A stretch of DNA of 20,669 bases from Candidatus Saganbacteria bacterium (lineage in GTDB: Bacteria > Margulisbacteria > WOR-1 > O2-12-FULL-45-9): positions 1 to 20,669 of the forward strand of contig JABMSE010000102.1 of the NCBI GenBank assembly GCA_013204645.1, written 5' to 3'. Each line of letters begins with the position of its first letter. Positions within the stretch are counted from its first letter, which is position 1. This document shows, in pieces, positions 1-14,479 of this stretch. The notes beneath the pieces are model-generated. The model saw nothing but the letters and a program-made list of their open reading frames with translations, ran no database searches and was not told the DNA's origin. A program made the position numbers and the translations under genes.

Positions 1-110
1 AAGAATTTGATATTTTTTCTCGCTTGCCCTGAGCTTGCTTGCATTGAGCTTGTCGAAATGTCGAAGGGCTCGTCCAACTCGCTGCGAAAAAAAAATAAAT
101 TCTTGCACTT
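1..110. repeat. Palindromic TIR element, copy A, cut by the window start. Terminal repeats are AAGTGCAAGAATTT and AAATTCTTGCACTT. It is in inverted orientation relative to copy B (1447-1515) and carries a 46-nt internal insertion.
   Basis: Positions 1-28 and 70-110 align to the reverse complement of 1447-1515 with a few mismatches. Positions 25-70 are present only in this copy. The end 101-110 (TCTTGCACTT) matches the 3' end of the terminal inverted repeat. Confidence 0.6.
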
Positions 111-148
111 GTCTTCGATGGCTTATGTTGGTGTATGGTACAGTGTTG

Positions 149-211
149 CAATTCCCCTTCTCTTTCTAAGAGAAGGGGGCAAAGGCTTTACTTAAGCGGG
201 GATGAGTTAGG
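149..211. repeat. 63-nt dispersed repeat, copy 1. It contains a perfect 10-bp hairpin, CCCCTTCTCT/AGAGAAGGGG.
   Basis: 59 of 63 positions are identical to 7171-7233. It ends 1 nt before the dxr stop codon. Confidence 0.75.
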
Positions 212-212
212 T

Positions 213-1355
213 TTATTGGCCTGGGACCATTCTAGCCTCTTTATCCGCGGAAAGGATATCCTCTAAAGATGGGCTCTCTTTATTCTGATGTTTATCCAAG
301 GCTGCCTTAATTTTGAGGGGCAGCTCAGCAAAATTGATTTTGCCTTTTAAAAACAGTTTAATGGCTTCTTCGTTGGCGGCATTTAAAACCGCGGGAAGGG
401 TTCCGCCTTTTTTGCCGGCTTCATAGGCATATTCCAAACAGGGAAATTTGCTTTTGTCGGGTTGCATAAAATCCAGTTTAGAAAGTTTGGCAAAGCTTAA
501 GTGATTCCAGTGATTGGCCATTCTTTTTTCCTCGAGCAAGGCGTATTGAATGGGAATCCGCATATCTGGTGCGCCCAACTGCGCTTTAATTGACCCGTCC
601 ACAAACTCGACAAAAGAATGAATCGTGCTTTGGGGATGAATCAAAACTTCTATTTTAGAATAAGGAAGATCAAACAAATAATGGGCTTCAATTACTTCAA
701 AGCCTTTGTTCATCAAGGTAGCAGAATCAATGCTAATCTTGGGTCCCATTTTCCAGGTAGGGTGTTTTAAGGCTTCCCGAGCCGTTAGGCTGGCAAATTT
801 TTCAACTGGGGTTTTAAGAAAAGGGCCGCCTGAAGCAGTTAAAACAATTTTTTGAATGGTTTTTGGGTCTTCGCCTTTTAAGCACTGGGCAATGGCACTG
901 TGCTCGGAGTCAATGGGAAAAACTTTGATCCCGGCGGCCTTGGCTTCCTTCATAAAAATCTCGCCGGCTGCGACTAAGACTTCTTTGGTGGCTAAGGCAA
1001 TATCTTTTTTGGCTTTAACCGCCTCGAGCACCGGAATCAAGGAAAGAGACCCAGGGATAGCTGCTACAACCATTTTGGCCGATGGTTCGGTTGCGACTTT
1101 GATCAAGCCCTCTTGTCCAACAAAAATTTGGGTTTTGCTTGCGCCTAATTTTTCCGCAACTTTTTGCTTTACTTCTTCGCTGGCAACGGAAACAATCTTT
1201 GGGGAAAACTTCTTGATTTGCTCGACAATGAGGTCAACTTCATCCTTGGCTGCTAAAGCCACAACCGTTAAGCTGCTAGGAAAGATTGAGACTACTTCTA
1301 GGGTTTGTTTGCCAATTGATCCAGTTGAGCCCAAAATAGCGAGGCCTTTTTTCAT
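213..1355 (-). CDS. dxr: 1-deoxy-D-xylulose 5-phosphate reductoisomerase
   Basis: A 386-aa ORF with DXR hallmarks: N-terminal LGSTGSIG NADPH-binding motif, a DSEHSAI motif, and full-length colinearity. The likely true start is the ATG at 1355-1353 (MKKGLAILGSTGSIG). The ORF-track start at 1373 is GTG. Confidence 0.9.
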   Translation of the reverse strand: MKKGLAILGSTGSIGKQTLEVVSIFPSSLTVVALAAKDEVDLIVEQIKKFSPKIVSVASEEVKQKVAEKLGASKTQIFVGQEGLIKVATEPSAKMVVAAIPGSLSLIPVLEAVKAKKDIALATKEVLVAAGEIFMKEAKAAGIKVFPIDSEHSAIAQCLKGEDPKTIQKIVLTASGGPFLKTPVEKFASLTAREALKHPTWKMGPKISIDSATLMNKGFEVIEAHYLFDLPYSKIEVLIHPQSTIHSFVEFVDGSIKAQLGAPDMRIPIQYALLEEKRMANHWNHLSFAKLSKLDFMQPDKSKFPCLEYAYEAGKKGGTLPAVLNAANEEAIKLFLKGKINFAELPLKIKAALDKHQNKESPSLEDILSADKEARMVPGQ

Positions 1356-1446
1356 GATGAGGGTATTATACACTAAAATAATGACTAATTACTAACCCTT
1401 CGACAACGCTCAGGGTTAGTGCCAAGCACCAATGAGGCACCGAAGA

Positions 1447-1515
1447 AAGTGCAAGAATTTATTTTTTTTCGCAGCGAGTCGGACGAGCGAGAAAAAATAT
1501 CAAATTCTTGCACTT
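1447..1515. repeat. Palindromic TIR element, copy B, 69 nt, with 14-bp terminal inverted repeats. MITE-like.
   Basis: AAGTGCAAGAATTT at 1447-1460 and its exact reverse complement at 1502-1515. The internal sequence matches copy A (1-110) in inverted orientation. Confidence 0.6.
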
Positions 1516-1538
1516 ATCCGATAGGCACCTAGGGTACC

Positions 1539-1566
1539 AATTAAATAGTAACCTGTCCCCATTTAA
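1539..1566 (-). repeat. 28-nt repeat R3, an exact inverted copy of 18056-18083.
   Basis: AATTAAATAGTAACCTGTCCCCATTTAA is the reverse complement of TTAAATGGGGACAGGTTACTATTTAATT at 18056-18083. It lies immediately 3' of the 161-aa gene on the minus strand. Confidence 0.7.
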
Positions 1567-1568
1567 AA

Positions 1569-2054
1569 TTACCCCATCGGTAAATCTATAAGCTGCTCAA
1601 GTCTTTCTTTTACTCCTGGTGGTGGTTGAAGAATTGGTTCAACGCCCGCAAGCAAGTCCTGTAAAACCCTTCTCGCAGAGTCAGTGTGGCGGGTCAGAAG
1701 TCGATGGCCAGTGGTACTTTCTTTATATAAATACTCCCGTTCTAAAACATCCAAAACCGCACTAATAATAGCTGGTCTTTCAATAATAACATTAACCGCT
1801 ATGGGACGAAGCTCCTCTGGGCCAGCCACGGCGAGCTTCACTAATCCATCAAGGGTTAATCCTCCTCGCTGAAATCTTCCTGAAAGATTAGCACCTAGAG
1901 GCCCTTTGCCCCAGGGATGCTCCTTTAGGCTTGCCGCAAGCCCGGCATAAGTAACAAAACGGTTGCCAACTTTTTCTTTAGGCGACAAAGCCGCCCATAT
2001 CAAAGGGGCCAAGGCCGTTCGCGCCACAAACATAGTTTTTGATGTAAAACTCAT
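1569..2054 (-). CDS. Hypothetical protein, 161 aa. The family was not recognised. It has an R-x4-H (RLLTRH) motif near the C-terminus, which hints at a possible HEPN-like fold.
   Basis: Long ORF with an AAGGAAAAA-ATG ribosome-binding context. No family signature I can assign. The Rx4H motif is seen in the translation. Confidence 0.55.
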   Translation of the reverse strand: MSFTSKTMFVARTALAPLIWAALSPKEKVGNRFVTYAGLAASLKEHPWGKGPLGANLSGRFQRGGLTLDGLVKLAVAGPEELRPIAVNVIIERPAIISAVLDVLEREYLYKESTTGHRLLTRHTDSARRVLQDLLAGVEPILQPPPGVKERLEQLIDLPMG

Positions 2055-2092
2055 TTTTTCCTTACTTATCTTCTTCGTATATTATTTTAAGA

Positions 2093-2105
2093 AATTTCAC
2101 TTTTC
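2093..2105 (-). promoter_or_regulatory. Shared upstream motif AAAAGTGAAATTT, about 40 nt upstream of the 161-aa gene start
   Basis: The same exact 13-mer occurs at 13351-13363, at the same distance (about 40 nt) from the start of the 187-aa hypothetical gene. Chance expectation in 20 kb on both strands is about 6e-4. Confidence 0.45.
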
Positions 2106-2125
2106 CTGCAATTCTTTGGTTATCA

Positions 2126-2312
2126 TAAATCAGGGCATATCTTTTGCGCAGGCGGTCTCAATCAAGGGAGGCGGAAGGGGCATTTGATCCCGTCCAGGGA
2201 TCAAGGGGTCGCGGGTACCTGCGGGGAAGGCCGTAGCAAGCAGTCGTCCAGACTGCGAAGCGTGGGGAGGGGTGTTTTGAGAGCGCCGAGCAAAATGATA
2301 TGCCCTGATTTA
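2126..2312. ncRNA. GC-rich structured element bounded by 22/23-nt inverted repeats. Candidate ncRNA (6S-like long closing helix?) or MITE.
   Basis: TAAATCAGGGCATATCTTTTGC at 2126-2147 pairs with 2290-2312 as 16 bp, a 1-nt bulge, then 6 bp. The helix continues inward (TCTCAA/TTGAGA). The interior has two G-rich strands and two hairpins with identical GTCCA loops (2184-2204 and 2240-2256). GC is visibly higher than the flanks. Confidence 0.45.
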
Positions 2313-2365
2313 CTTTGCAAAGCTAAATAGTTACCTCAAAACTGCTATACTATACGTACAGCACA

Positions 2366-4180
2366 ATGAAAAAAAATTTGAAGTGGTTAGCGATCATAGT
2401 TGCAGCAATTGTTGCCCTTCTGATAATTGGGGCAGTTGCCCTCCCCTTTTTCCTTCCCTTAGAAAAAATAAAGGATTTTACAACCTCCAAAATTTCAGAC
2501 GCCCTGGGCTGCGAAGTAGCGATTGAAAAAGTTTCCTTTAACCTTTTTTCCGGCATTAAACTTGAGGATATTTCAGTTGGAAATGCTCCGGGTTTCTCTA
2601 AAACCCCTTTTGTCAGGGCTAAAAGCCTTGATCTTCGTTACGCCTTCTGGCCTATATTTAGACGACAACTAATTGTAAAAGAAATAAGATTAGTTTCCCC
2701 ACAAATTTATATTGAAAAAAACGCTCAAGGTCAATTTAATTTCACAAGCTATAAGGCAAAAGACAAATATCCTGACAAGATCTATCCCGATGAGGAAGAT
2801 GCAGCCAAAGAGGACAGCTCCTCCGATAAAAAAGCGCCCTTTTCATTAATTATAGATGCTTTTTCGGTGCGGGATGGGACCATTACCTATTTTGACCAGG
2901 CCACCAATACTAAAAGTAAACTAAAAAACACCAATTTGACGATTTCTGGAATTACCCTTGCACTACTAAAACCGGTTAATCTCCATTTCAAAACCCTGGC
3001 GATTTATCAAGACAAACAAGTCCCGATTTCTCTGGCAGGAAAAATTGAAGTCGACCCCACAAAGAATGAACTCAAAATACCTTCCCTAGAACTAAACATT
3101 GCCGGAGAAAAAGCCAAAATAGAACTTACTATTTCAAACTGGAAAACCGGACCAGACATTAATTTTTCAATTTCCTCGAAAAAATTATCAATTGACCCAT
3201 TGCTGGCTATTTTTGCAGCTGGCGCCCCCAGCGATAAAAAAGCTGCTAAGCCCGGGGCAATTACCAAGGCCGTAAACAAAACTACCTCATCCCTGCCGTC
3301 TACGCTAGCGCTAAAAGGCAAGATTGATCTTGAAAACATCACTTTCCAAAAATTTAAAATTGATAAGCTTGATTTAGACATAAGACTTTTTAAGAAGTGG
3401 TTAGAATTGGAAATAAATGAGGTTGGGCTTTATGACGGGAAACTGTCCGGCACGGCACTAATTAAGCTTGTACCCGGACTCTCATATCAAATAAAAGATT
3501 TAACCCTGACCGGCTTTAATGCCACCCCCTTTGTAAACGCTCTGGTTGAAACGTTTTTAGTCGACAAACCGGTTTATAAGGATTTAATCGATAAGGTTTA
3601 CGGCAGATTAGATCTTAGCTTAAATCTTAGCGGGAGCGGAGTTGAGCCAGGCCCAGCTTTTGCGAATGCCGTTGCAAAAGGGAGTTTCACATTAACCGGC
3701 GGTGAAATCAAGCGCATAAAAACTTTAGCTGAAATTGGGACGCTGATTAATTCAAACACCTTGCAGGAAAACGTGAAATTTAAAGATTTGGGAGCAAGCT
3801 TTAGCTTAAGAAATAAGGTTCTTGAGATCAAAGATCTCAAGCTTGAGGACACAGATTTTTCCGCCCAATTCAGTGGCGGTGCCGATCTAGGCAACGGACA
3901 ATGGATGGCCGGCAACCGTCTTCTGGTCCGCCTTTCCCCAAGCCTTACCCAGGGTCTTCCTTCCCAGCTCAGCGTTTTTCGCGATGATTCTGGCTGGCTC
4001 AATCTTACCTTTGAGCTGACTGGAGCATTTAAAAACACGCGGCTTACCCCAATCTTAGCTACCCCAATCGAGAAAACAGTTGGAAAGCTAAAGATTAAGA
4101 TTGAAGCCCAAAAACTTGAGATTGAGAAAAAAGTTAAAGAAGAATTAGAGAAAAAGGCTAAAGAACTCCTCAACTTTTAA
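2366..4180 (+). CDS. AsmA-family outer-membrane assembly protein
   Basis: 604 aa. It has an N-terminal transmembrane anchor followed by a characteristic AsmA N-domain (VSFNLFSGIKLEDISVGN...LRYAFWPIFRRQLIVKEIRLVSPQIYIE). The body is long and beta-rich, and the C-terminus is a K/E coiled coil. Confidence 0.75.
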   Translation: MKKNLKWLAIIVAAIVALLIIGAVALPFFLPLEKIKDFTTSKISDALGCEVAIEKVSFNLFSGIKLEDISVGNAPGFSKTPFVRAKSLDLRYAFWPIFRRQLIVKEIRLVSPQIYIEKNAQGQFNFTSYKAKDKYPDKIYPDEEDAAKEDSSSDKKAPFSLIIDAFSVRDGTITYFDQATNTKSKLKNTNLTISGITLALLKPVNLHFKTLAIYQDKQVPISLAGKIEVDPTKNELKIPSLELNIAGEKAKIELTISNWKTGPDINFSISSKKLSIDPLLAIFAAGAPSDKKAAKPGAITKAVNKTTSSLPSTLALKGKIDLENITFQKFKIDKLDLDIRLFKKWLELEINEVGLYDGKLSGTALIKLVPGLSYQIKDLTLTGFNATPFVNALVETFLVDKPVYKDLIDKVYGRLDLSLNLSGSGVEPGPAFANAVAKGSFTLTGGEIKRIKTLAEIGTLINSNTLQENVKFKDLGASFSLRNKVLEIKDLKLEDTDFSAQFSGGADLGNGQWMAGNRLLVRLSPSLTQGLPSQLSVFRDDSGWLNLTFELTGAFKNTRLTPILATPIEKTVGKLKIKIEAQKLEIEKKVKEELEKKAKELLNF

Positions 4181-4181
4181 C

Positions 4182-4216
4182 GCAAGTTTTCGTCGCCAAA
4201 ACCCGATATATATAGT
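4182..4216 (+). promoter_or_regulatory. Promoter-like motif copy D: GCAAGTT-N15-CGATATATATAGT
   Basis: One of four copies with identical spacing. The others are at 6060, 17553 and 18863. It sits immediately after the asmA stop and 12 nt before the 4228 ATG. Confidence 0.5.
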
Positions 4217-4227
4217 AGGAGAGCAAC

Positions 4228-4491
4228 ATGAGGAACGCGATTGCCATTTTACTCCTAATATTTGCTGTGCTGGCAAGCCCCGGTGCGTTGGCTGGCGAAG
4301 AAACACCCTATGCTTTCCCGATTAAAGAACTCCATGCTGCCCCGCTAGCAGACTCAGCTATCACCTACAACATCCCCGTTGAGGTGAAATTGCTGGATGT
4401 TTCCGGTGATTGGTATAAAGTCAAAATATCCTACGGCATCGGCCCCCTCCAATATAATTATGTAGGGTGGACACACATTCCCCTGCGCTAA
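4228..4491 (+). CDS. Small secreted protein, 87 aa, with a Sec signal peptide. Possible SH3b-like fold.
   Basis: AGGAG ribosome-binding site 6 nt upstream. Signal peptide MRNAIAILLLIFAVLASPGALA|GE. The GDWYKV...GW pattern is reminiscent of bacterial SH3 domains. Confidence 0.6.
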   Translation: MRNAIAILLLIFAVLASPGALAGEETPYAFPIKELHAAPLADSAITYNIPVEVKLLDVSGDWYKVKISYGIGPLQYNYVGWTHIPLR

Positions 4492-4492
4492 C

Positions 4493-4521
4493 TTGCTTCC
4501 CCTCCCCCAACCTGTTATAAT
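4493..4521 (+). promoter_or_regulatory. Sigma-70-type promoter with an extended -10: TTGCTT-N17-TGTTATAAT
   Basis: -35 TTGCTT at 4493-4498. Extended -10 TGTTATAAT at 4513-4521. It lies upstream of the sORF and the SPFH gene. Confidence 0.5.
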
Positions 4522-4556
4522 CTTTTTCAAATCACAACAAAAAGGAGGGGCATTTT

Positions 4557-4721
4557 ATGATATCAAAAGTAATAAAGATTATTATCGGACTGGCTCTAAT
4601 TGGCCTGGGCGCCTGGACAATTTACCTCTGGTGGGGAGATTTATTGACTTTAATTCGAGGAGGAATTGGCCTGGTTTTAATCCTGGCGGGATTAATTACT
4701 TTTGCCCTGGTTGCAGACTAA
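4557..4721 (+). CDS. Small hydrophobic membrane protein, 54 aa, with two predicted transmembrane segments. It is not in the ORF track.
   Basis: ATG with an AAAGGAGGGG ribosome-binding site 7 nt upstream. The translation MISKVIKIIIGLALIGLGAWTIYLWWGDLLTLIRGGIGLVLILAGLITFALVAD is almost entirely hydrophobic. It lies 50 nt upstream of the SPFH gene, a position typical of NfeD-like partners. Confidence 0.6.
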   Translation: MISKVIKIIIGLALIGLGAWTIYLWWGDLLTLIRGGIGLVLILAGLITFALVAD

Positions 4722-4771
4722 CGGGGACCGGCAAAACAAGCTAACAAGCTATTGTTTATTGGGAGGAAACT

Positions 4772-5533
4772 ATGCTTTCTTATGCCTCACCGATTATCCT
4801 TATAATCCTCTATGTTTTCTTTTCCATTAAACAGATTAACCAGTACGAGCGCGGAGTCAAATTTCGGCTGGGAAAATACGTCGGCATAATGGAGCCCGGG
4901 TGGAAAATTGTTTTCCCTCTTTTTGAAGGCTTTAAGCGGGTTGATATCCGAGTTAAGGCGGTGGATGTTCCGGACCAGGAAGCCATGACACGCGACAACG
5001 TTTCGGTACGCATCAATGCGGTAATTTACTACAAAATCAGCCAAGCCGAAAAATCGGTAATTGAAGTTGAAAACTACTACTACGCTATGTCTCAGCTGGC
5101 TCAAACCACTATGCGAAACATCATTGGAGAAGTAACTTTGGATGAGCTTTTGACCCAGCGCGAATTCCTGGCGAATAAAATTCAGCAAATTACTGATAAG
5201 GCATCCGACCCTTGGGGAATCACTGTTAAGGATGTTTCTCTAAAAGATATTATTCTTCCCGAAGAAATGAAGAGGGTAATTGCCAAACAGGCTGAGGCCG
5301 AAAGAGAAAAAAGGGCGGTCATTATAAAAGCTGAAGGAGAGGTTATGGCCTCCCAAAATATGGCACAAGCAGCTAGAACCCTTTCTTCGGCGCATGGAGC
5401 GCTCCACCTTAAAACCTTGCAATCCATAAAGGACCTTAGCTCTGACCAATCAAACACTATCGTTTTCGCGGTTCCCTTAGAGATTTTGCGGGCTTTTGAA
5501 AGATTTGGCCAGACCGAAACTAAGGCAGGTTAA
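4772..5533 (+). CDS. SPFH/band-7 (stomatin/prohibitin-like) membrane protein
   Basis: GGAGG ribosome-binding site. N-terminal transmembrane segment then an SPFH domain (NQYERGVKFRLGKY...TRDNVSVRINAVIYYKI...). The C-terminus has an EAEREKRA coiled-coil segment. Confidence 0.85.
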   Translation: MLSYASPIILIILYVFFSIKQINQYERGVKFRLGKYVGIMEPGWKIVFPLFEGFKRVDIRVKAVDVPDQEAMTRDNVSVRINAVIYYKISQAEKSVIEVENYYYAMSQLAQTTMRNIIGEVTLDELLTQREFLANKIQQITDKASDPWGITVKDVSLKDIILPEEMKRVIAKQAEAEREKRAVIIKAEGEVMASQNMAQAARTLSSAHGALHLKTLQSIKDLSSDQSNTIVFAVPLEILRAFERFGQTETKAG

Positions 5534-5535
5534 CA

Positions 5536-6048
5536 TTGAAAGAAGAACTTAAAAAACTACTAAAATCTACGGGGGCAGTTAAAACTGGTGAGTTTACTCT
5601 TTCTTCTGGCAAAAAAAGCAATTTCTATGTTGACTGCCGAAAAGTAACGCTTCATCCTCAAGGCGCTAAATTAATCGCTAAAATCATCCTAGAAAAAATA
5701 AAGGGGTTAAAAGTTGACGCCATTGGCGGCTTAACCCTGGGCGCAGATCCAATCACGTCTTCAGTTGTTGCCTTAAGCGATATTCCTGGTTTTATTGTGC
5801 GCAAAAAAGCAAAAGAACATGGAACCCAGCAAAGGATTGAAGGAATAATTGAACCAGGCTGGAAGGTGATAATTGTTGAAGATGTTGCCACCACTGGTGC
5901 GTCAGCCCTTCAGGCTATCGAAGCAGTTGAATCCATTGGCGCCAAAGTTATTAAGGTGATTTCCGTAGTCGACCGCCAAGAAGGCGCAGCCCAAACCCTA
6001 AAAGCCTACGACTTTGATCCGATCTGCACAAAGAACGAACTCCTGTAA
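5536..6048 (+). CDS. pyrE: Orotate phosphoribosyltransferase
   Basis: PRTase fold with a PRPP-binding motif (VIIVEDVATTGAS). The N-terminus GEFTLSSGKKSNFYVD is typical of OPRTase. The apparent start is TTG, overlapping the previous stop. Confidence 0.8.
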   Translation: MKEELKKLLKSTGAVKTGEFTLSSGKKSNFYVDCRKVTLHPQGAKLIAKIILEKIKGLKVDAIGGLTLGADPITSSVVALSDIPGFIVRKKAKEHGTQQRIEGIIEPGWKVIIVEDVATTGASALQAIEAVESIGAKVIKVISVVDRQEGAAQTLKAYDFDPICTKNELL

Positions 6049-6059
6049 CCCTTCCGAAT

Positions 6060-6094
6060 GCAAGTTCTGCCCCCTCAAATACGATATATATAGT
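6060..6094 (+). promoter_or_regulatory. Promoter-like motif copy A: GCAAGTT-N15-CGATATATATAGT
   Basis: Same motif and spacing as the other three copies. It sits right after the pyrE stop and about 95 nt upstream of the 313-aa protein start. Confidence 0.5.
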
Positions 6095-6189
6095 GTAAAC
6101 GAGCCAAAAACAGAAGAACATGATTCTCAAGCCACGCTTGTGCCCGCTTGAGTATTTTCTTCTGCGAAATAAAAGGGAGGAAACAAATA

Positions 6190-7089
6190 ATGGTACCACC
6201 AACCCCACCCCGCGGAGTGAGGAGAGCCCATATCTTAGGCCCGGGTCCTACTGGCCCACGAGGGAAAAACTCCCCACCCCCCACCTTAAAAGATCTTCTC
6301 CATGACATAGCGGCAAAAAGGGCCAAAAGATCTCACAAATATGCGGGGTATCTCCCTGAGCAAGTTACTGCTTACTTAACCGATAGATATGTGCGACAAG
6401 CACAGTTATTTGAAACCTTAGTTGCCAATCATGGCTTTAGGCTGCTAGCTCCCGAAGGAGAGGTTGAGACAGCTACTCCACTTTCGGTTATTTTCCTCAC
6501 CGCCGATGGATATGTGATGTGCCTTTCGGCTCCAAGACCAGATGGAACATTTGAGAATGCTCGAACCAGTGCTTATTTGAGTATTGGGAACACAACCAAG
6601 ATTGGGAAGGAAGATCAGAATACTGCTTTTTATGCTCCTGTTAAAGTAGGGGGGAGGTCCCCCATTGCGCGAACAAACACTATTTTTCAAGGTGGCAAAA
6701 TAATTTGCGTTGCCGTTGCCGAAGTTACCCCAGAGACAACTCCATTTGAAATATGTTTGGGAGTGATCTTAGGGCTTCGTGAGCAAAGATTACCTAAGCT
6801 AGAAGCACCAGCCGTTCCCACCGTTCGTCCTCCAGTGCAAGAAATGGCTGCAACAGTTGCGATGCCAACCCTGGGTGACCCCGGCGGCGTAAAATCAGAA
6901 CTAGACCGAGCATTACGTCCAGGAAGAGATCTGGATACACCCCTTCGTAAGCGACCAACCCACGAAAAGGGTGGCGTTTTCAGCATAAGAAAGGATTTCG
7001 GCCTTGAGCCCGCTTCCAAAAAACGCTCCTCGCTCGCCTGGCGAATTATCACTTGGCTGCCTAGGCAGATTGCAAAATTGTTTGAATAA
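6190..7089 (+). CDS. Hypothetical protein, about 300 aa, Pro/Gly/Arg-rich N-terminus, no signal peptide, compositional outlier
   Basis: Strong AAGGGAGG ribosome-binding site 8 nt before the ATG at 6190. The ORF track begins at an in-frame ATG at 6148. GC is visibly higher than in neighbouring genes. No recognisable family. Confidence 0.6.
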   Translation: MVPPTPPRGVRRAHILGPGPTGPRGKNSPPPTLKDLLHDIAAKRAKRSHKYAGYLPEQVTAYLTDRYVRQAQLFETLVANHGFRLLAPEGEVETATPLSVIFLTADGYVMCLSAPRPDGTFENARTSAYLSIGNTTKIGKEDQNTAFYAPVKVGGRSPIARTNTIFQGGKIICVAVAEVTPETTPFEICLGVILGLREQRLPKLEAPAVPTVRPPVQEMAATVAMPTLGDPGGVKSELDRALRPGRDLDTPLRKRPTHEKGGVFSIRKDFGLEPASKKRSSLAWRIITWLPRQIAKLFE

Positions 7090-7109
7090 TCTACTAACTC
7101 ACCTCCTAA

Positions 7110-7134
7110 CCTCCTCTCTTAAAAAGAGAGGAGG
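7110..7134 (+). terminator. Perfect 10-bp pyrimidine/purine hairpin (CCTCCTCTCT/AGAGAGGAGG), a candidate terminator for the 313-aa gene
   Basis: Seen directly. It has no U-tract. Its style is similar to the hairpin in the 63-nt repeat. Confidence 0.4.
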
Positions 7135-7170
7135 ACATTAGTTCAAGAAAATATTATTTTAGTTCTGTCA

Positions 7171-7233
7171 CAATTCCCCTTCTCTTTCTAAGAGAAGGGG
7201 GCGATGGCTTTCCCTAAGCGGGGATGAGTTAGG
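7171..7233. repeat. 63-nt dispersed repeat, copy 2. It contains a perfect 10-bp hairpin, CCCCTTCTCT/AGAGAAGGGG.
   Basis: 59 of 63 positions are identical to 149-211. Confidence 0.75.
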
Positions 7234-7240
7234 CCTCAAC

Positions 7241-7270
7241 TTGTCCACCTCCCTCATCTTCTGATATACT
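7241..7270 (+). promoter_or_regulatory. Candidate sigma-70 promoter for tRNA-Thr: TTGTCC-N18-TATACT
   Basis: -35 at 7241-7246, -10 at 7265-7270, about 22 nt before the tRNA. Confidence 0.4.
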
Positions 7271-7292
7271 ATCCCTTAGCCTATTTTTCGTT

Positions 7293-7365
7293 GCCCGTGT
7301 AGCTCAGTTGGTAGAGCATTTCCATGGTAAGGAAAAGGTCGCCGGTTCAACTCCGGCCGCGGGCT
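7293..7365 (+). tRNA. tRNA-Thr (anticodon GGU). No encoded CCA.
   Basis: Cloverleaf: acceptor GCCCGTG/CGCGGGC, D-arm GCTC...GAGC, anticodon stem TTTCC/GGAAA with loop ATGGTAA (anticodon GGT), T-arm GCCGG-TTCAACT-CCGGC, discriminator T. Lying upstream of tuf, as is typical. Confidence 0.9.
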
Positions 7366-13255: not shown

Positions 13256-13350
13256 CTGTCCCGACGACATTAATATATTTGATAGTGGAATGTCGGGATC
13301 CCGTCCTTGGCGGGAAAATTTCGTAAACTGAAAATTTCAAAATCTTCGCA

Positions 13351-13363
13351 AAAAGTGAAATTT
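13351..13363 (+). promoter_or_regulatory. Shared upstream motif AAAAGTGAAATTT, about 41 nt upstream of the 187-aa gene start
   Basis: Identical 13-mer to 2093-2105 on the minus strand at the equivalent position. It is flanked by a related TGAAAATTTCA half-site. Confidence 0.45.
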
Positions 13364-13404
13364 TCCCCCAAATTTGTCGATAAAAGATATAGGAGGAATC
13401 ACAT

Positions 13405-13968
13405 ATGCGATCAGTAGGAAGACCTATGGCAAGCCGGGGCTCAAGTAGAACAGCCCCCCCGGCAAAACAAGTGGCTGTTCTAAGAACCAATAATAATACG
13501 TGGGGAATAAAGATTCGCGAAGGCACACGGCTTGGGATAACAAGAAACTTATCTGTTTTTGTTCTTAATGACCGGAAGCATTCGGATGTCATTGTTGAGC
13601 TAGAGTGTCGAAGAATTGCAAGCCAGCTTGTTTTAATGGTTAAGCCAATTAAGCCAGGAACTAGCATTAGGATAAATCAACCAAGTGCCCCTTCGCCCTT
13701 TAATCAAGAAACAACCTTGTCAAATACTCATGGTTCTACTCGCCCTCCCCAAATGCAGCTGGCATGGGATACAACTATTTCCGTTTCGCAAAATAATGCT
13801 GGGGGAAAAGAATCTCCAGGATTAATCAGACTAGAACTTGGCGACGATCCTGGTTTTTCTCGGGCACGCACTACATTAATAGAAAAAGCCGTTGCTGACA
13901 CAGTAGCTTCTCGCAATCGACACGTCTATCACGGGACACGACGTGGGCCCAACCTTAGGAATGGCTAA
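13405..13968 (+). CDS. Hypothetical protein, 187 aa. It is R/S/T/N-rich with an atypical composition for this genome.
   Basis: Canonical AGGAGG ribosome-binding site 8 nt upstream of the ATG. No family recognised. Its composition is unlike the K-rich neighbours, so the coding status is not certain. Confidence 0.45.
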   Translation: MRSVGRPMASRGSSRTAPPAKQVAVLRTNNNTWGIKIREGTRLGITRNLSVFVLNDRKHSDVIVELECRRIASQLVLMVKPIKPGTSIRINQPSAPSPFNQETTLSNTHGSTRPPQMQLAWDTTISVSQNNAGGKESPGLIRLELGDDPGFSRARTTLIEKAVADTVASRNRHVYHGTRRGPNLRNG

Positions 13969-14037
13969 AAATGATATTACAAAGAGCAACAGTGCCAATC
14001 GCAGCAAGGCGGGTGGGAACCTTTCGTCCGTTAACCA

Positions 14038-14436
14038 TTGTTTTGGTGGCCCGCGGACAACAAAAAAAAGGGGGGGGTGATTGCTGCTCTGTTCGCAAAA
14101 GGAATAGACGTTACCTCTCTTGGCCAAATTGGAATTAAAACTAAAAATGATCTTTCTGCTTTAAACGCTTTTCTTGATAGCAAAGAAAAACAAGGTTTAG
14201 ATCAACGGGTAAGAGAAAAGCTGGGTTTAATTGATGGGGTGGCGAAACTTATTCTTCCCTCCGGTACCACAATTTTCTATCGCTCTTCTTGCGCAGACGC
14301 AAATGGACGCCTTATAAAAGAGCTGCGTGCATTAGAGGACCAACGCCCGTGCCGCCCCGAAGAAGTTTTTAACACTCACTTATCCGGCCTTAAAACAGTT
14401 TCTTTAACTACTGGGGATTTTAGTTTACTTGCCTAG
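14038..14436 (+). CDS. Hypothetical ORF of 132 codons with no internal Met. It is possibly the 3' part of a phase-variable or frameshifted gene starting at ATG 13971.
   Basis: The ORF has only TTG (14038) or GTG (14077) as candidate starts. An ATG at 13971, 2 nt after the upstream stop, reads 35 codons and runs out of frame at the A8G8 tract. A 1-nt contraction of the tract would fuse the two into a protein of about 155 aa. Confidence 0.35.
   Translation: MFWWPADNKKKGGVIAALFAKGIDVTSLGQIGIKTKNDLSALNAFLDSKEKQGLDQRVREKLGLIDGVAKLILPSGTTIFYRSSCADANGRLIKELRALEDQRPCRPEEVFNTHLSGLKTVSLTTGDFSLLA
14062..14077. repeat. Homopolymeric tract A8G8
   Basis: Seen directly: CAAAAAAAAGGGGGGGGT. It lies at the junction between two reading frames: ATG 13971 in frame 0, and ORF 14038-14436 in frame +1. 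Confidence 0.9.
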
Positions 14437-14459
14437 TTCTTTCCTGCTCTTTAAAAAAA

Positions 14460-14468
14460 TGTTATAAT
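14460..14468 (+). promoter_or_regulatory. Extended -10 TGTTATAAT, 12 nt upstream of the aminotransferase ATG, implying a near-leaderless transcript
   Basis: Seen directly. There is no Shine-Dalgarno sequence between the -10 and the ATG at 14480. Confidence 0.4.
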
Positions 14469-14479
14469 ACCCACTTGTT

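What the first reader, a model, noticed from the sequence alone, without database searches (positions are those of the whole stretch)
2126..2312. 187-nt GC-rich element closed by 22/23-nt inverted repeats with two GUCCA-loop hairpins: a candidate structured ncRNA or MITE
TAAATCAGGGCATATCTTTTGC at 2126-2147 pairs with 2290-2312 as 16 bp, a single-nucleotide bulge, then 6 bp. Pairing continues inward (TCTCAA/TTGAGA). The interior has two non-complementary G-rich strands (GGGAGGCGGAAGGGG and GGGGAGGGG), which could form a large internal loop or a G-quadruplex. There are two stem-loops whose loops are both GTCCA (TTGATCCC-GTCCA-GGGATCAA and GCAGTC-GTCCA-GACTGC). The element is far more GC-rich than the AT-rich flanks. 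It sits between the divergently oriented 161-aa hypothetical gene and asmA. A long closing helix plus internal bubble is 6S-like, and identical loop pentamers suggest a protein- or RNA-binding function. Alternatively it is a MITE with long terminal inverted repeats.
Basis: seen in the sequence. Interest (0 to 1): 0.65.

Follow-up and report, generated by a model that had tools for sequence, protein, structure and literature searches.

The report
Orphan GC-rich foldback element beside asmA
A real 187-base DNA segment closed by near-perfect inverted repeats sits in a lineage-specific insertion between two housekeeping genes of an uncultured Saganbacteria genome. It most likely is a small foldback (MITE-like) repeat, not a known regulatory RNA, but this could not be proven because no related genome exists in public data.

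Summary
Positions 2126-2312 form a 16 bp + 1-nt bulge + 6 bp closing helix, extended by 4 + 6 bp, with two perfect hairpins that share a GTCCA loop. The element is 57% GC against 25-34% GC flanks. It is identical in two independent assemblies.

The exceptional fold energy (z about -7 on both strands) comes only from the terminal arms. The 115-nt interior alone scores z about -1. All 46 core pairs are Watson-Crick, so nothing marks an RNA strand.

No Rfam family matches, 6S included. Eight related dxr/asmA loci lack the element. Where dxr and asmA are neighbours they are 60-107 nt apart, or separated by an unrelated gene. The element and a 161-aa orphan ORF therefore lie in a lineage-specific insert of about 950 bp.

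The same contig holds other foldback and palindromic repeats, some in two or more copies. No second copy or parent IS was found anywhere, but the source genome beyond about 22 kb could not be searched, and the nearest asmA homologue is only 56% identical.

- **Best reading (about 0.4):** a MITE/ERIC-like foldback insertion with possible TA duplication.
- **Rivals:** a lineage-specific structured ncRNA (about 0.25) or an invertible segment (about 0.1).
- **Unexplained:** the twin GTCCA hairpins.

The parts
2126..2312 (.). The whole 187-nt foldback element (57% GC)
   Evidence: MFE z is -7.2 (+ RNA), -7.4 (- RNA) and -8.2 (ssDNA).
2126..2147 (.). Left terminal inverted repeat, TAAATCAGGGCATATCTTTTGC. 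It begins with TA, a possible target-site duplicate.
2290..2312 (.). Right terminal inverted repeat, GCAAAATGATATGCCCTGATTTA, with the extra base A2296. It ends with TA.
2151..2161 (.). Inner left arm, GGCG-G-TCTCAA. It pairs with 2277-2287 and contains a G/G mismatch.
   Evidence: (I1: 36-nt arms, 81% complementary)
2277..2287 (.). Inner right arm, TTGAGA-G-CGCC
2184..2204 (+). Hairpin 1: an 8-bp perfect stem with loop GTCCA (TGGAC on the - strand). It starts 58 nt from the left end.
2240..2256 (+). Hairpin 3: a 6-bp perfect stem with loop GTCCA. It ends 56 nt from the right end.
2210..2223 (.). Short palindrome CGCGGGTACCTGCG (a weak central hairpin)
2166..2180 (+). G-rich unpaired strand GGGAGGCGGAAGGGG. 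On the - strand it reads C-rich, with a CCUCC-like motif.
   Evidence: G makes up 48% of the 95 unpaired nt.
2264..2272 (+). G-rich unpaired strand GGGGAGGGG
2197..2226 (+). The only canonical G-quadruplex motif (G3+N1-7 x4) in the 20.7-kb contig. It overlaps the 3' arm of hairpin 1.
1569..2054 (-). The 161-aa orphan ORF that shares the lineage-specific insert. Its codon-position GC looks like that of a coding gene, with host-like GC3.
1374..2365 (.). The dxr-asmA spacer, about 990 nt here. It is 60-107 nt, or occupied by an unrelated lipoprotein gene, in relatives. It also contains foldback A (1447-1515) and motif B (1539-1566).
2343..2351 (+). Candidate extended -10 box TGcTATACT for asmA, read by eye and below the scan tool's threshold. 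It lies outside the element.
   Evidence: Sequence, compared with the TATAAT boxes of relatives. One search found no site under its criteria.
2084..2111 (-). Candidate promoter TTGCAG-16 nt-TAAAAT for the 161-aa ORF, followed by the SD AAGGA. Read by eye; it lies outside the element.
   Evidence: Sequence. Inference only; one search found none under its criteria.

Best explanation
The element is a small non-autonomous foldback DNA element. It resembles a MITE, or an ERIC/Correia-like palindromic repeat, that inserted into the dxr-asmA spacer of this Saganbacteria lineage.

Inferred mechanism: a transposase supplied in trans binds the 22-nt terminal inverted repeats (core AATCAGGGCATATC), excises or copies the 183-187-bp unit, and inserts it at a TA dinucleotide, which is duplicated.

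At its present site it lies between two candidate core promoters that were read by eye and fall below the scan tool's threshold. It starts 15 nt upstream of the candidate -35 box of the 161-aa ORF. It ends about 10 nt upstream of the expected -35 position of asmA. If those promoter assignments hold, its most likely effect is passive or at the DNA level: spacing or insulating the two divergent promoters, or forming local structure. If transcribed by read-through, its arms would form a 22-bp duplex of the kind RNase III cleaves.

Shown: the anatomy, that the element is real, its absence from relatives, and the repeat-rich context. Inferred: mobility, the TA duplication, and any effect on expression.
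For: - The terminal arms are near-perfect (16 + 6 bp, extendable to 36 nt at 81%) and are the longest local inverted repeat in the contig.
- The extreme fold energy comes from those arms alone. The interior scores z -1.2 and -1.1.
- All 46 core pairs are Watson-Crick, with no G-U, so the structure is equally present on both strands. This is expected for a DNA-level inverted repeat.
- TA is present at both extremities, at 2126-2127 and 2311-2312.
- No Rfam family matches at gathering score or at E<=10.
- The scan found no promoter-like site, and no terminator-like site next to the element; its single terminator-like hit lies inside asmA.
- L002/L003 and L004 have dxr and asmA 60-107 nt apart. 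L005 and L199 have an unrelated gene in the spacer. None of the eight related loci contains anything similar.
- The same contig carries other TIR-bounded foldbacks and palindromic repeats, several in two or more copies:
  - family A at about 1-113 and at 1447-1515;
  - motif B at 1539-1566 and 18056-18083, and as a 22-nt TIR pair at 19368-19514;
  - a hairpin repeat at 144-211 and 7166-7233.
  The relatives' loci show far fewer such repeats.
- Prokaryotic MITEs can be present at only 1 to 22 copies per genome (review PMC10969869).
Against: - No second copy was found:
  - none in the 20.7-kb contig plus 1.7 kb of extension;
  - none in 185,579 species-representative genomes, where the two-arm pattern gave 0 hits and the 18-mer arm gave 66 chance hits, none extending beyond 24 nt;
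  - none in JGI metagenome contigs, where the single hit L008 is a chance match;
  - none in viral contigs, phages or plasmids.
- No parent IS with the same ends was found.
- The TA duplication cannot be told apart from two more bases of inverted repeat.
- The interior has two perfect hairpins with identical GTCCA loops on the same strand (p<0.004 for the hairpins; identical loops 0 in 5000 shuffles). It is 64% GC in a 44.5% GC genome. A decaying MITE does not predict either feature, and both hint at selection.
- The 161-aa ORF next to it has host-like GC3 (0.37). The GC-rich element is therefore either more recent or under constraint.
Confidence: 0.4

Rival explanations
1. A lineage-specific, independently transcribed structured ncRNA of about 187 nt. 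A long closing helix holds a three-way junction. Two hairpins present the same pentaloop (GUCCA on the + strand, UGGAC on the - strand) to a protein or RNA partner. The junction strands are G-rich on + (GGA/GGAGG motifs and a G4 motif) or C-rich and anti-Shine-Dalgarno-like on - (CCUCC).
For: - It is a GC-rich island (57-64%) between 25-34% GC flanks, similar to structural RNAs in moderately AT-rich genomes.
- The twin perfect hairpins with identical loops are non-random.
- Closing helix, junction and loop-presenting hairpins together form a typical ncRNA layout.
- The sequence is unchanged in two assemblies.
- The adjacent orphan protein is predicted to be all-helical and repeat-like (low confidence). 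Such a protein could be an RNA-binding partner, but this is speculation.
Against: - No Rfam match.
- No promoter-like site, and no terminator-like site adjoining the element, by the scan.
- The interior is no more stable than shuffles.
- There are no G-U pairs among 46 core pairs, and no strand signal.
- A 22-bp near-perfect duplex would be an RNase III substrate.
- It is absent from all related loci examined.
- Covariation cannot be tested, because the nearest asmA homologue is 56% identical.
Confidence: 0.25
2. An invertible DNA segment (inverton). A site-specific recombinase acting in trans flips the roughly 140-bp interior between the 22-nt inverted repeats. This would switch expression of asmA and/or the 161-aa ORF.
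For: - The inverted repeats are of typical length and flank a segment shorter than 300 bp. More than 75% of known invertons are shorter than 300 bases (PMC11602134).
- It lies in an intergenic position directly upstream of an outer-membrane biogenesis gene and close to lpxC, fabZ-lpxA and lpxB.
Against: - No -10-like TAnnnT hexamer on either strand of the interior (by eye on the sequence), and no promoter-like site by the scan.
- No recombinase gene in the 22 kb available.
- Both full assemblies show one orientation.
- The Logan contig starts at 2274, not at the position expected for a graph branch caused by inversion within the arms (inference).
- The GC-rich hairpin-bearing interior is left unexplained.
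Confidence: 0.1
3. A cis-acting 5' leader (riboswitch-like, or a structure that controls translation) of asmA on the + strand, or of the 161-aa ORF on the - strand.
For: - It lies 54 nt upstream of the asmA ATG and 72 nt upstream of the ORF's ATG.
- asmA here lacks the GAGGTGAT Shine-Dalgarno sequence seen in relatives.
Against: - Candidate core promoters for both genes lie between the element and each gene (by eye).
- Relatives' asmA genes have short leaders with no such element.
- No Rfam cis-regulatory family matches.
Confidence: 0.07

Closest known systems
Correia repeat-enclosed elements (Neisseria MITE)
   Same: - Size of 100-200 bp, with terminal inverted repeats of 20-26 bp.
- TA at both ends.
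- Intergenic location just upstream of genes.
- TIRs that form an RNase III-cleavable duplex when transcribed (PMC10969869; TIR length and TA duplication are from my own knowledge).
   Different: - Correia elements occur in more than 100 copies and carry promoters and an IHF site. Here one copy is known, and no promoter or IHF-like site was identified.
- The interior here is GC-rich, with twin hairpins.
- There is no sequence relationship. The shared AAATCAGG octamer in the TIR is recalled from memory and is most likely chance.
ERIC/IRU and similar imperfect palindromic intergenic repeats
   Same: - An imperfect palindrome of about 130-190 nt in intergenic DNA that folds as one long hairpin.
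- Copy number is very variable between lineages (PMC10969869).
   Different: - ERIC elements are usually co-transcribed at the 3' or 5' ends of genes. This element lies between two divergent genes.
- No family of copies has been shown here.
Invertible promoters (invertons, e.g. the Bacteroides fragilis polysaccharide switches)
   Same: - Inverted repeats of about 20 nt bound a segment of under 300 bp, upstream of a cell-envelope gene.
   Different: No internal promoter, no nearby recombinase, and no evidence of two orientations.
6S RNA
   Same: - Length of about 185 nt.
- The 5' and 3' ends pair in a long closing helix.
   Different: - No match to any Rfam 6S model.
- The interior is a multibranch, not a rod with a central bubble.
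- The closing helix is a perfect duplex rather than an irregular one.
- Not conserved in relatives.
IS200/IS605-type elements and their PATE derivatives
   Same: - Two subterminal hairpins with like loops on the same strand, at similar distances from the two ends (58 and 56 nt).
   Different: - Those elements have no terminal inverted repeats and no duplication, and they need a Y1 TnpA.
- No such gene lies nearby.
- The resemblance rests on my own knowledge and was not tested.

Membership tests
MITE | Terminal inverted repeats | tested here: met
   Arms of 16 + 6 bp, extendable to 36 nt at 81% complementarity
MITE | Small (about 50-500 bp) and non-coding | tested here: met
   187 nt. No ORF with a start codon spans it. 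The six-frame translation finds no protein at E<=10 among 5.8 billion clusters.
MITE | Target-site duplication flanking the TIRs | tested here: inconclusive
   TA lies at both ends (2126-2127, 2311-2312). TA is palindromic, so it cannot be separated from the inverted repeat. No longer direct repeat is present in the flanks.
MITE | Multiple dispersed copies in the genome | tested here: inconclusive
   One copy in about 22 kb. None in public collections. The metagenome scan did not return even the identical JGI contig L001, so the source sample and the rest of the MAG were not searched.
MITE | Autonomous parent IS with matching ends | tested here: not met
   All 66 hits to the 18-mer arm in 185,579 genomes are single and extend no further than 24 nt. 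This applies only to the collections searched and to exact matches.
6S RNA | Match to the 6S covariance models | tested here: not met
   No hit at gathering score or at E<=10
6S RNA | Rod-like fold with a large central bubble flanked by irregular helices | tested here: not met
   The MFE and centroid structures show a perfect closing helix and then a multibranch with 2-3 short hairpins
6S RNA | Binds the sigma-70 holoenzyme and templates pRNA | not testable with these tools
   Needs biochemistry
Inverton | Inverted repeats bounding a short intergenic segment | tested here: met
   typical inverton size
Inverton | Promoter inside the invertible segment | tested here: not met
   No promoter-like site by the scan. 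No TAnnnT hexamer in 2148-2289 on either strand (sequence).
Inverton | Both orientations present in sequencing reads | not testable with these tools
   Only assemblies are available, and they show one orientation
Retron ncRNA (msr-msd) | Adjacent reverse transcriptase gene on the same strand | tested here: not met
   The neighbours are asmA (Pfam AsmA/DUF748) and a 161-aa orphan with no Pfam, PHROG or PADLOC hit
Integron attC site | R''/R' core sites (RYYYAAC ... GTTRRRY) at the ends of the palindrome | tested here: not met
   The ends read TAAATCAGGG ... CCCTGATTTA. The consensus is from my own knowledge.
Riboswitch / known cis-regulatory leader | Match to a curated family and conservation upstream of orthologous genes | tested here: not met
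   No Rfam match. Relatives' asmA leaders are short and unrelated.

The most novel reading that the evidence does not exclude
The element is a previously undescribed, lineage-restricted structured RNA, or a single-stranded nucleic-acid element. Its two same-strand hairpins present an identical GUCCA (or UGGAC) pentaloop to a dedicated partner, possibly the adjacent orphan helical-repeat protein. G-rich/G4 or anti-Shine-Dalgarno-like C-rich junction strands would act as the effector surface. Element and orphan gene would then form a new two-part module that inserted next to asmA.
Probability: 0.15. Interest if true: 0.6.

Novelty: new member of a known kind. Interest (0 to 1): 0.3.

Why it matters
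If it is a MITE-like foldback, it is an ordinary feature. Together with the other repeats on this contig, it would still show that at least one Saganbacteria lineage carries an unusually dense load of small palindromic insertions in core-gene spacers, in a group where mobile elements are hardly described. If it is instead a functional RNA or recombination substrate with twin GUCCA loops, it would be a new family. That claim needs transcript or read-level data that public assemblies cannot give.

Tried and rejected
- **Rfam:** searched at gathering score over the whole window, and at E<=10 over 2000-2450. Only tRNA-Thr and three noise hits appeared.
- **6S, retron, attC, riboswitch:** rejected on their defining features (see the membership tests).
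- **Protein-coding fragment:** rejected. A concatenated six-frame translation found nothing at E<=10.
- **Phage or plasmid origin:** blastn found nothing, apart from one 35-nt chance hit.
- **Pattern scans:**
  - two-arm pattern in genomes: 0 hits;
  - arm 18-mer in genomes: 66 chance hits;
  - arm 21-mer in metagenomes: 1 chance hit in an unrelated contig carrying large unrelated ORFs;
  - a 14-mer in viral contigs gave only random single hits, so that scan was wasted;
  - hairpin and two-arm patterns in viral contigs: 0 hits.
- **161-aa neighbour:**
  - no homologue by word-index search or by full HMMER search; the weak hits are low-complexity or repeat proteins;
  - no Pfam, PHROG or PADLOC family;
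  - the single-sequence AlphaFold model (pLDDT 62) is all-helical and has no significant PDB match;
  - unrelated to the 313-aa orphan and to the genes that relatives have in the dxr-asmA spacer.
- **More sequence from the same genome:** identical EF-Tu, asmA and dxr proteins returned only overlapping pieces of the same locus. The ORF6N protein is not on record.
- **Logan contig break at 2274:** considered as a sign of inversion or repetition. Judged uninformative: the break is better attributed (my inference) to low coverage or the preceding G-run, and it is not at the position expected for an inversion branch.

Full report
**Source and context**

The window is an entire 20,669-nt contig of an uncultured Candidatus Saganbacteria MAG. 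The 161-aa ORF is GenBank HQ596_05035. A JGI contig (L001, sample 3300032738) is 100% identical over window 1-7353 and extends 1.7 kb further. A Logan contig from run SRR28106056 (L198) is identical over 2274-4587. The element is therefore not an assembly artefact.

**Checking the observation**

- 2126-2141 pairs with 2297-2312 (16 bp), A2296 bulges out, and 2142-2147 pairs with 2290-2295 (6 bp).
- Pairing continues as GGCG/CGCC and TCTCAA/TTGAGA around a G/G mismatch.
- Hairpin 1 (2184-2204, 8 bp) and hairpin 3 (2240-2256, 6 bp) both have the loop GTCCA.
- The G-rich strands lie at 2166-2180 and 2264-2272.

GC content is 57% for the element and 64% for its interior. The flanks are 25% and 34%, and the contig as a whole is 44.5%.

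Folding gives -90 kcal/mol on the + strand (z -7.2), -73.4 on the - strand (z -7.4) and -48.6 as ssDNA (z -8.2). No shuffle does as well. It is the longest local inverted repeat in the contig. It ties for the most structured 200-nt window on the + strand.

**What the structure does and does not say**

The 115-nt interior alone is not unusually stable. It scores z -1.2 on + and -1.1 on -, and 27-28 of 200 shuffles fold at least as well. The remarkable energy therefore comes entirely from the terminal arms.

All 46 pairs in the six well-defined helices are Watson-Crick. There is no G-U pair, so the core is equally present on both strands and nothing identifies an RNA strand. The extra stability of the + strand comes from G-U pairs among the G-rich junction strands.

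The interior is still not featureless:
- Two perfect hairpins of at least 6 bp occur in only 0.4% of 5000 shuffles. Identical loops occurred in none.
- Of 23 GTCCA/TGGAC pentamers in the contig, only these two are hairpin loops.
- The hairpins sit 58 nt from the left end and 56 nt from the right end, on the same strand.
- The 95 unpaired bases are 48% G.
- The only canonical G-quadruplex motif in the contig lies at 2197-2226 on the + strand.

**Known families**

Rfam finds only tRNA-Thr in the window at gathering score. At E<=10 it finds nothing relevant around the element. The consensus scan found no promoter-like site, and no terminator-like site adjoining the element.

By eye, a TTGCAG-16 nt-TAAAAT promoter with an AAGGA Shine-Dalgarno sequence precedes the 161-aa ORF (2084-2111, - strand). 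An extended -10 box, TGcTATACT, precedes asmA (2343-2351). Both lie between the element and the respective gene. If these assignments are right, the element fills the space between two divergent core promoters and lies in neither 5' UTR. This is inference only.

**Comparative context**

The nearest asmA homologue among 5.8 billion protein clusters is 56% identical. No close relative exists in public data, so covariation cannot be tested.

Eight related loci were examined:
- In L002/L003 and L004, dxr and asmA are divergent neighbours 60-107 nt apart. The spacer holds paired TATAAT boxes.
- In L005 and L199 an unrelated lipoprotein-like gene lies in the spacer.
- In L006/L007 and L200, asmA has other upstream neighbours.
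- None contains anything similar to the element.

The roughly 990-nt spacer here is therefore a lineage-specific insert. It holds the 161-aa ORF and the element.

The ORF is an orphan:
- No homologue by word-index search or by full HMMER search.
- No Pfam, PHROG or PADLOC family.
- Its single-sequence model is helical, of low confidence, and has no significant PDB match.
- Its codon-position GC (0.60/0.45/0.37) looks like that of a coding gene, and its GC3 matches the host.

**Repeat-rich contig**

The same contig carries several other small palindromic or foldback repeats:
- Family A (AAGTGCAAGAATTT...AAATTCTTGCACTT) flanks dxr, at about 1-113 and at 1447-1515.
- Motif B (TTAAATGGGGACAGGTTACTATTTAATT) lies at 1539-1566 and 18056-18083. 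It also forms a 22-nt TIR pair enclosing 103 nt at 19368-19514.
- A 68-nt hairpin repeat lies at 144-211 and 7166-7233.
- A direct repeat of about 520 nt surrounds an ORF6N gene.

Apart from the element itself, all the top structural outliers in the sliding-window fold lie in these repeat-bearing spacers. Relatives' loci show far fewer such inverted repeats. This makes a DNA-repeat origin for the focal element plausible by analogy.

**Search for other copies**

No other copy was found:
- The contig plus its extension hold only the one copy.
- Phages and plasmids gave nothing.
- In 185,579 species-representative genomes, the two-arm pattern gave 0 hits. An 18-mer arm pattern gave 66 single hits in unrelated taxa, none extending beyond 24 nt, which is roughly the number expected by chance.
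- In JGI metagenome contigs, a 21-nt arm pattern gave one chance hit.
- Viral contigs gave 0 hits for three specific patterns.
- A six-frame translation found no predicted protein.

There is an important caveat. The metagenome scan did not return even the identical contig L001. The source sample is therefore not in the searchable set, and the rest of the MAG could not be reached. Copy number in the source genome, which is the decisive MITE test, remains untested.

**Interpretation**

I favour a MITE/ERIC/Correia-like foldback insertion, at about 0.4. The supporting observations are:
- long, purely Watson-Crick terminal inverted repeats that carry all the fold energy;
- TA at both ends;
- location in a lineage-specific insert;
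- a repeat-rich contig;
- no RNA-family match and no transcription signals.

MITE families can have as few as one copy per genome (PMC10969869).

Against this reading: no second copy or parent IS is known, the TA duplication is ambiguous, and the GC-rich interior with twin identical-loop hairpins suggests constraint.

The rivals are:
- a lineage-specific ncRNA, about 0.25;
- an inverton, about 0.1. The size and repeat length fit, but there is no internal promoter, no recombinase, and no second orientation;
- a cis-acting leader, about 0.07.

The 6S-like suggestion is not supported. The twin GTCCA hairpins remain unexplained under every reading.

**Verdict**

The element is real and statistically unusual. 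It is currently an orphan, most likely a new member of the known class of small foldback repeats. Interest is modest unless read-level or transcript data show otherwise.

Noticed in passing
window 1-113 (complete copy in L001 7247-7357, reverse strand) and window 1447-1515: A second foldback family with arms of about 23-29 nt (AAGTGCAAGAATTT...AAATTCTTGCACTT) and GC-rich interiors of different length (about 117 and 69 nt). The two copies flank dxr.
   Followed up: partly
window 1539-1566, 18056-18083, 19368-19389 and 19493-19517: A 28-nt motif, TTAAATGGGGACAGGTTACTATTTAATT, is present as two 100% identical inverted copies 16.5 kb apart. One copy lies 3 nt after the stop codon of the 161-aa ORF. 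The motif also forms a 22-nt TIR pair enclosing 103 nt near folD. Like the focal element's arm, its end begins TAAAT (10 of 16 bases shared, not significant).
   Followed up: partly
window 144-211 and 7166-7233: A 68-nt repeat (91% identical) containing the hairpin CCCCTTCTCTT-TCTA-AGAGAAGGGG. One copy is downstream of dxr and the other is upstream of tRNA-Thr.
   Followed up: no
window 17551-18072 and 18861-19383: A direct repeat of about 520 nt (89-95% identical in blocks) on both sides of an ORF6N-domain gene (18168-18809). Each copy carries a small ORF with a signal-peptide-like N-terminus and a terminator-like compound hairpin.
   Followed up: no
window 20618-20669: A 13-nt tandem repeat, GGTGACTGACAC, runs to the very end of the contig and turns into its own reverse complement. 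It is either the reason the assembly ends there or an end artefact.
   Followed up: no
window 6148-7089: A 313-aa proline/arginine-rich orphan ORF with no Pfam, PHROG or PADLOC match. It occupies the spacer between the phosphoribosyltransferase gene and tRNA-Thr/tuf. Relatives have no gene called there.
   Followed up: partly
window 13256-14479: About 1.2 kb between lpxB and the aminotransferase gene holds only orphan ORFs (187 aa and 132 aa, no Pfam) and no Rfam hit.
   Followed up: partly
window 2340-2368, against L002 5975-6003, L004 5975-6003 and L005 3845-3871: asmA in this genome has no Shine-Dalgarno sequence (acagcacaATG) and may be nearly leaderless. Relatives have GAGGTGAT/GGGGTGAT 5-7 nt upstream of the ATG.
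   Followed up: no
L002 5943-5989: In relatives, the whole dxr-asmA spacer is a palindrome of two back-to-back TATAAT promoters (CGGGGACATTATACTAC / GTGGTATAATGTCTCCG).
   Followed up: no
L005 3869-4924 and L199 2063-2842: Two relatives have different lineage-specific lipoprotein-like genes (351 aa and 259 aa) inserted between dxr and asmA. This spacer therefore looks like a recurrent insertion site in the group.
   Followed up: partly
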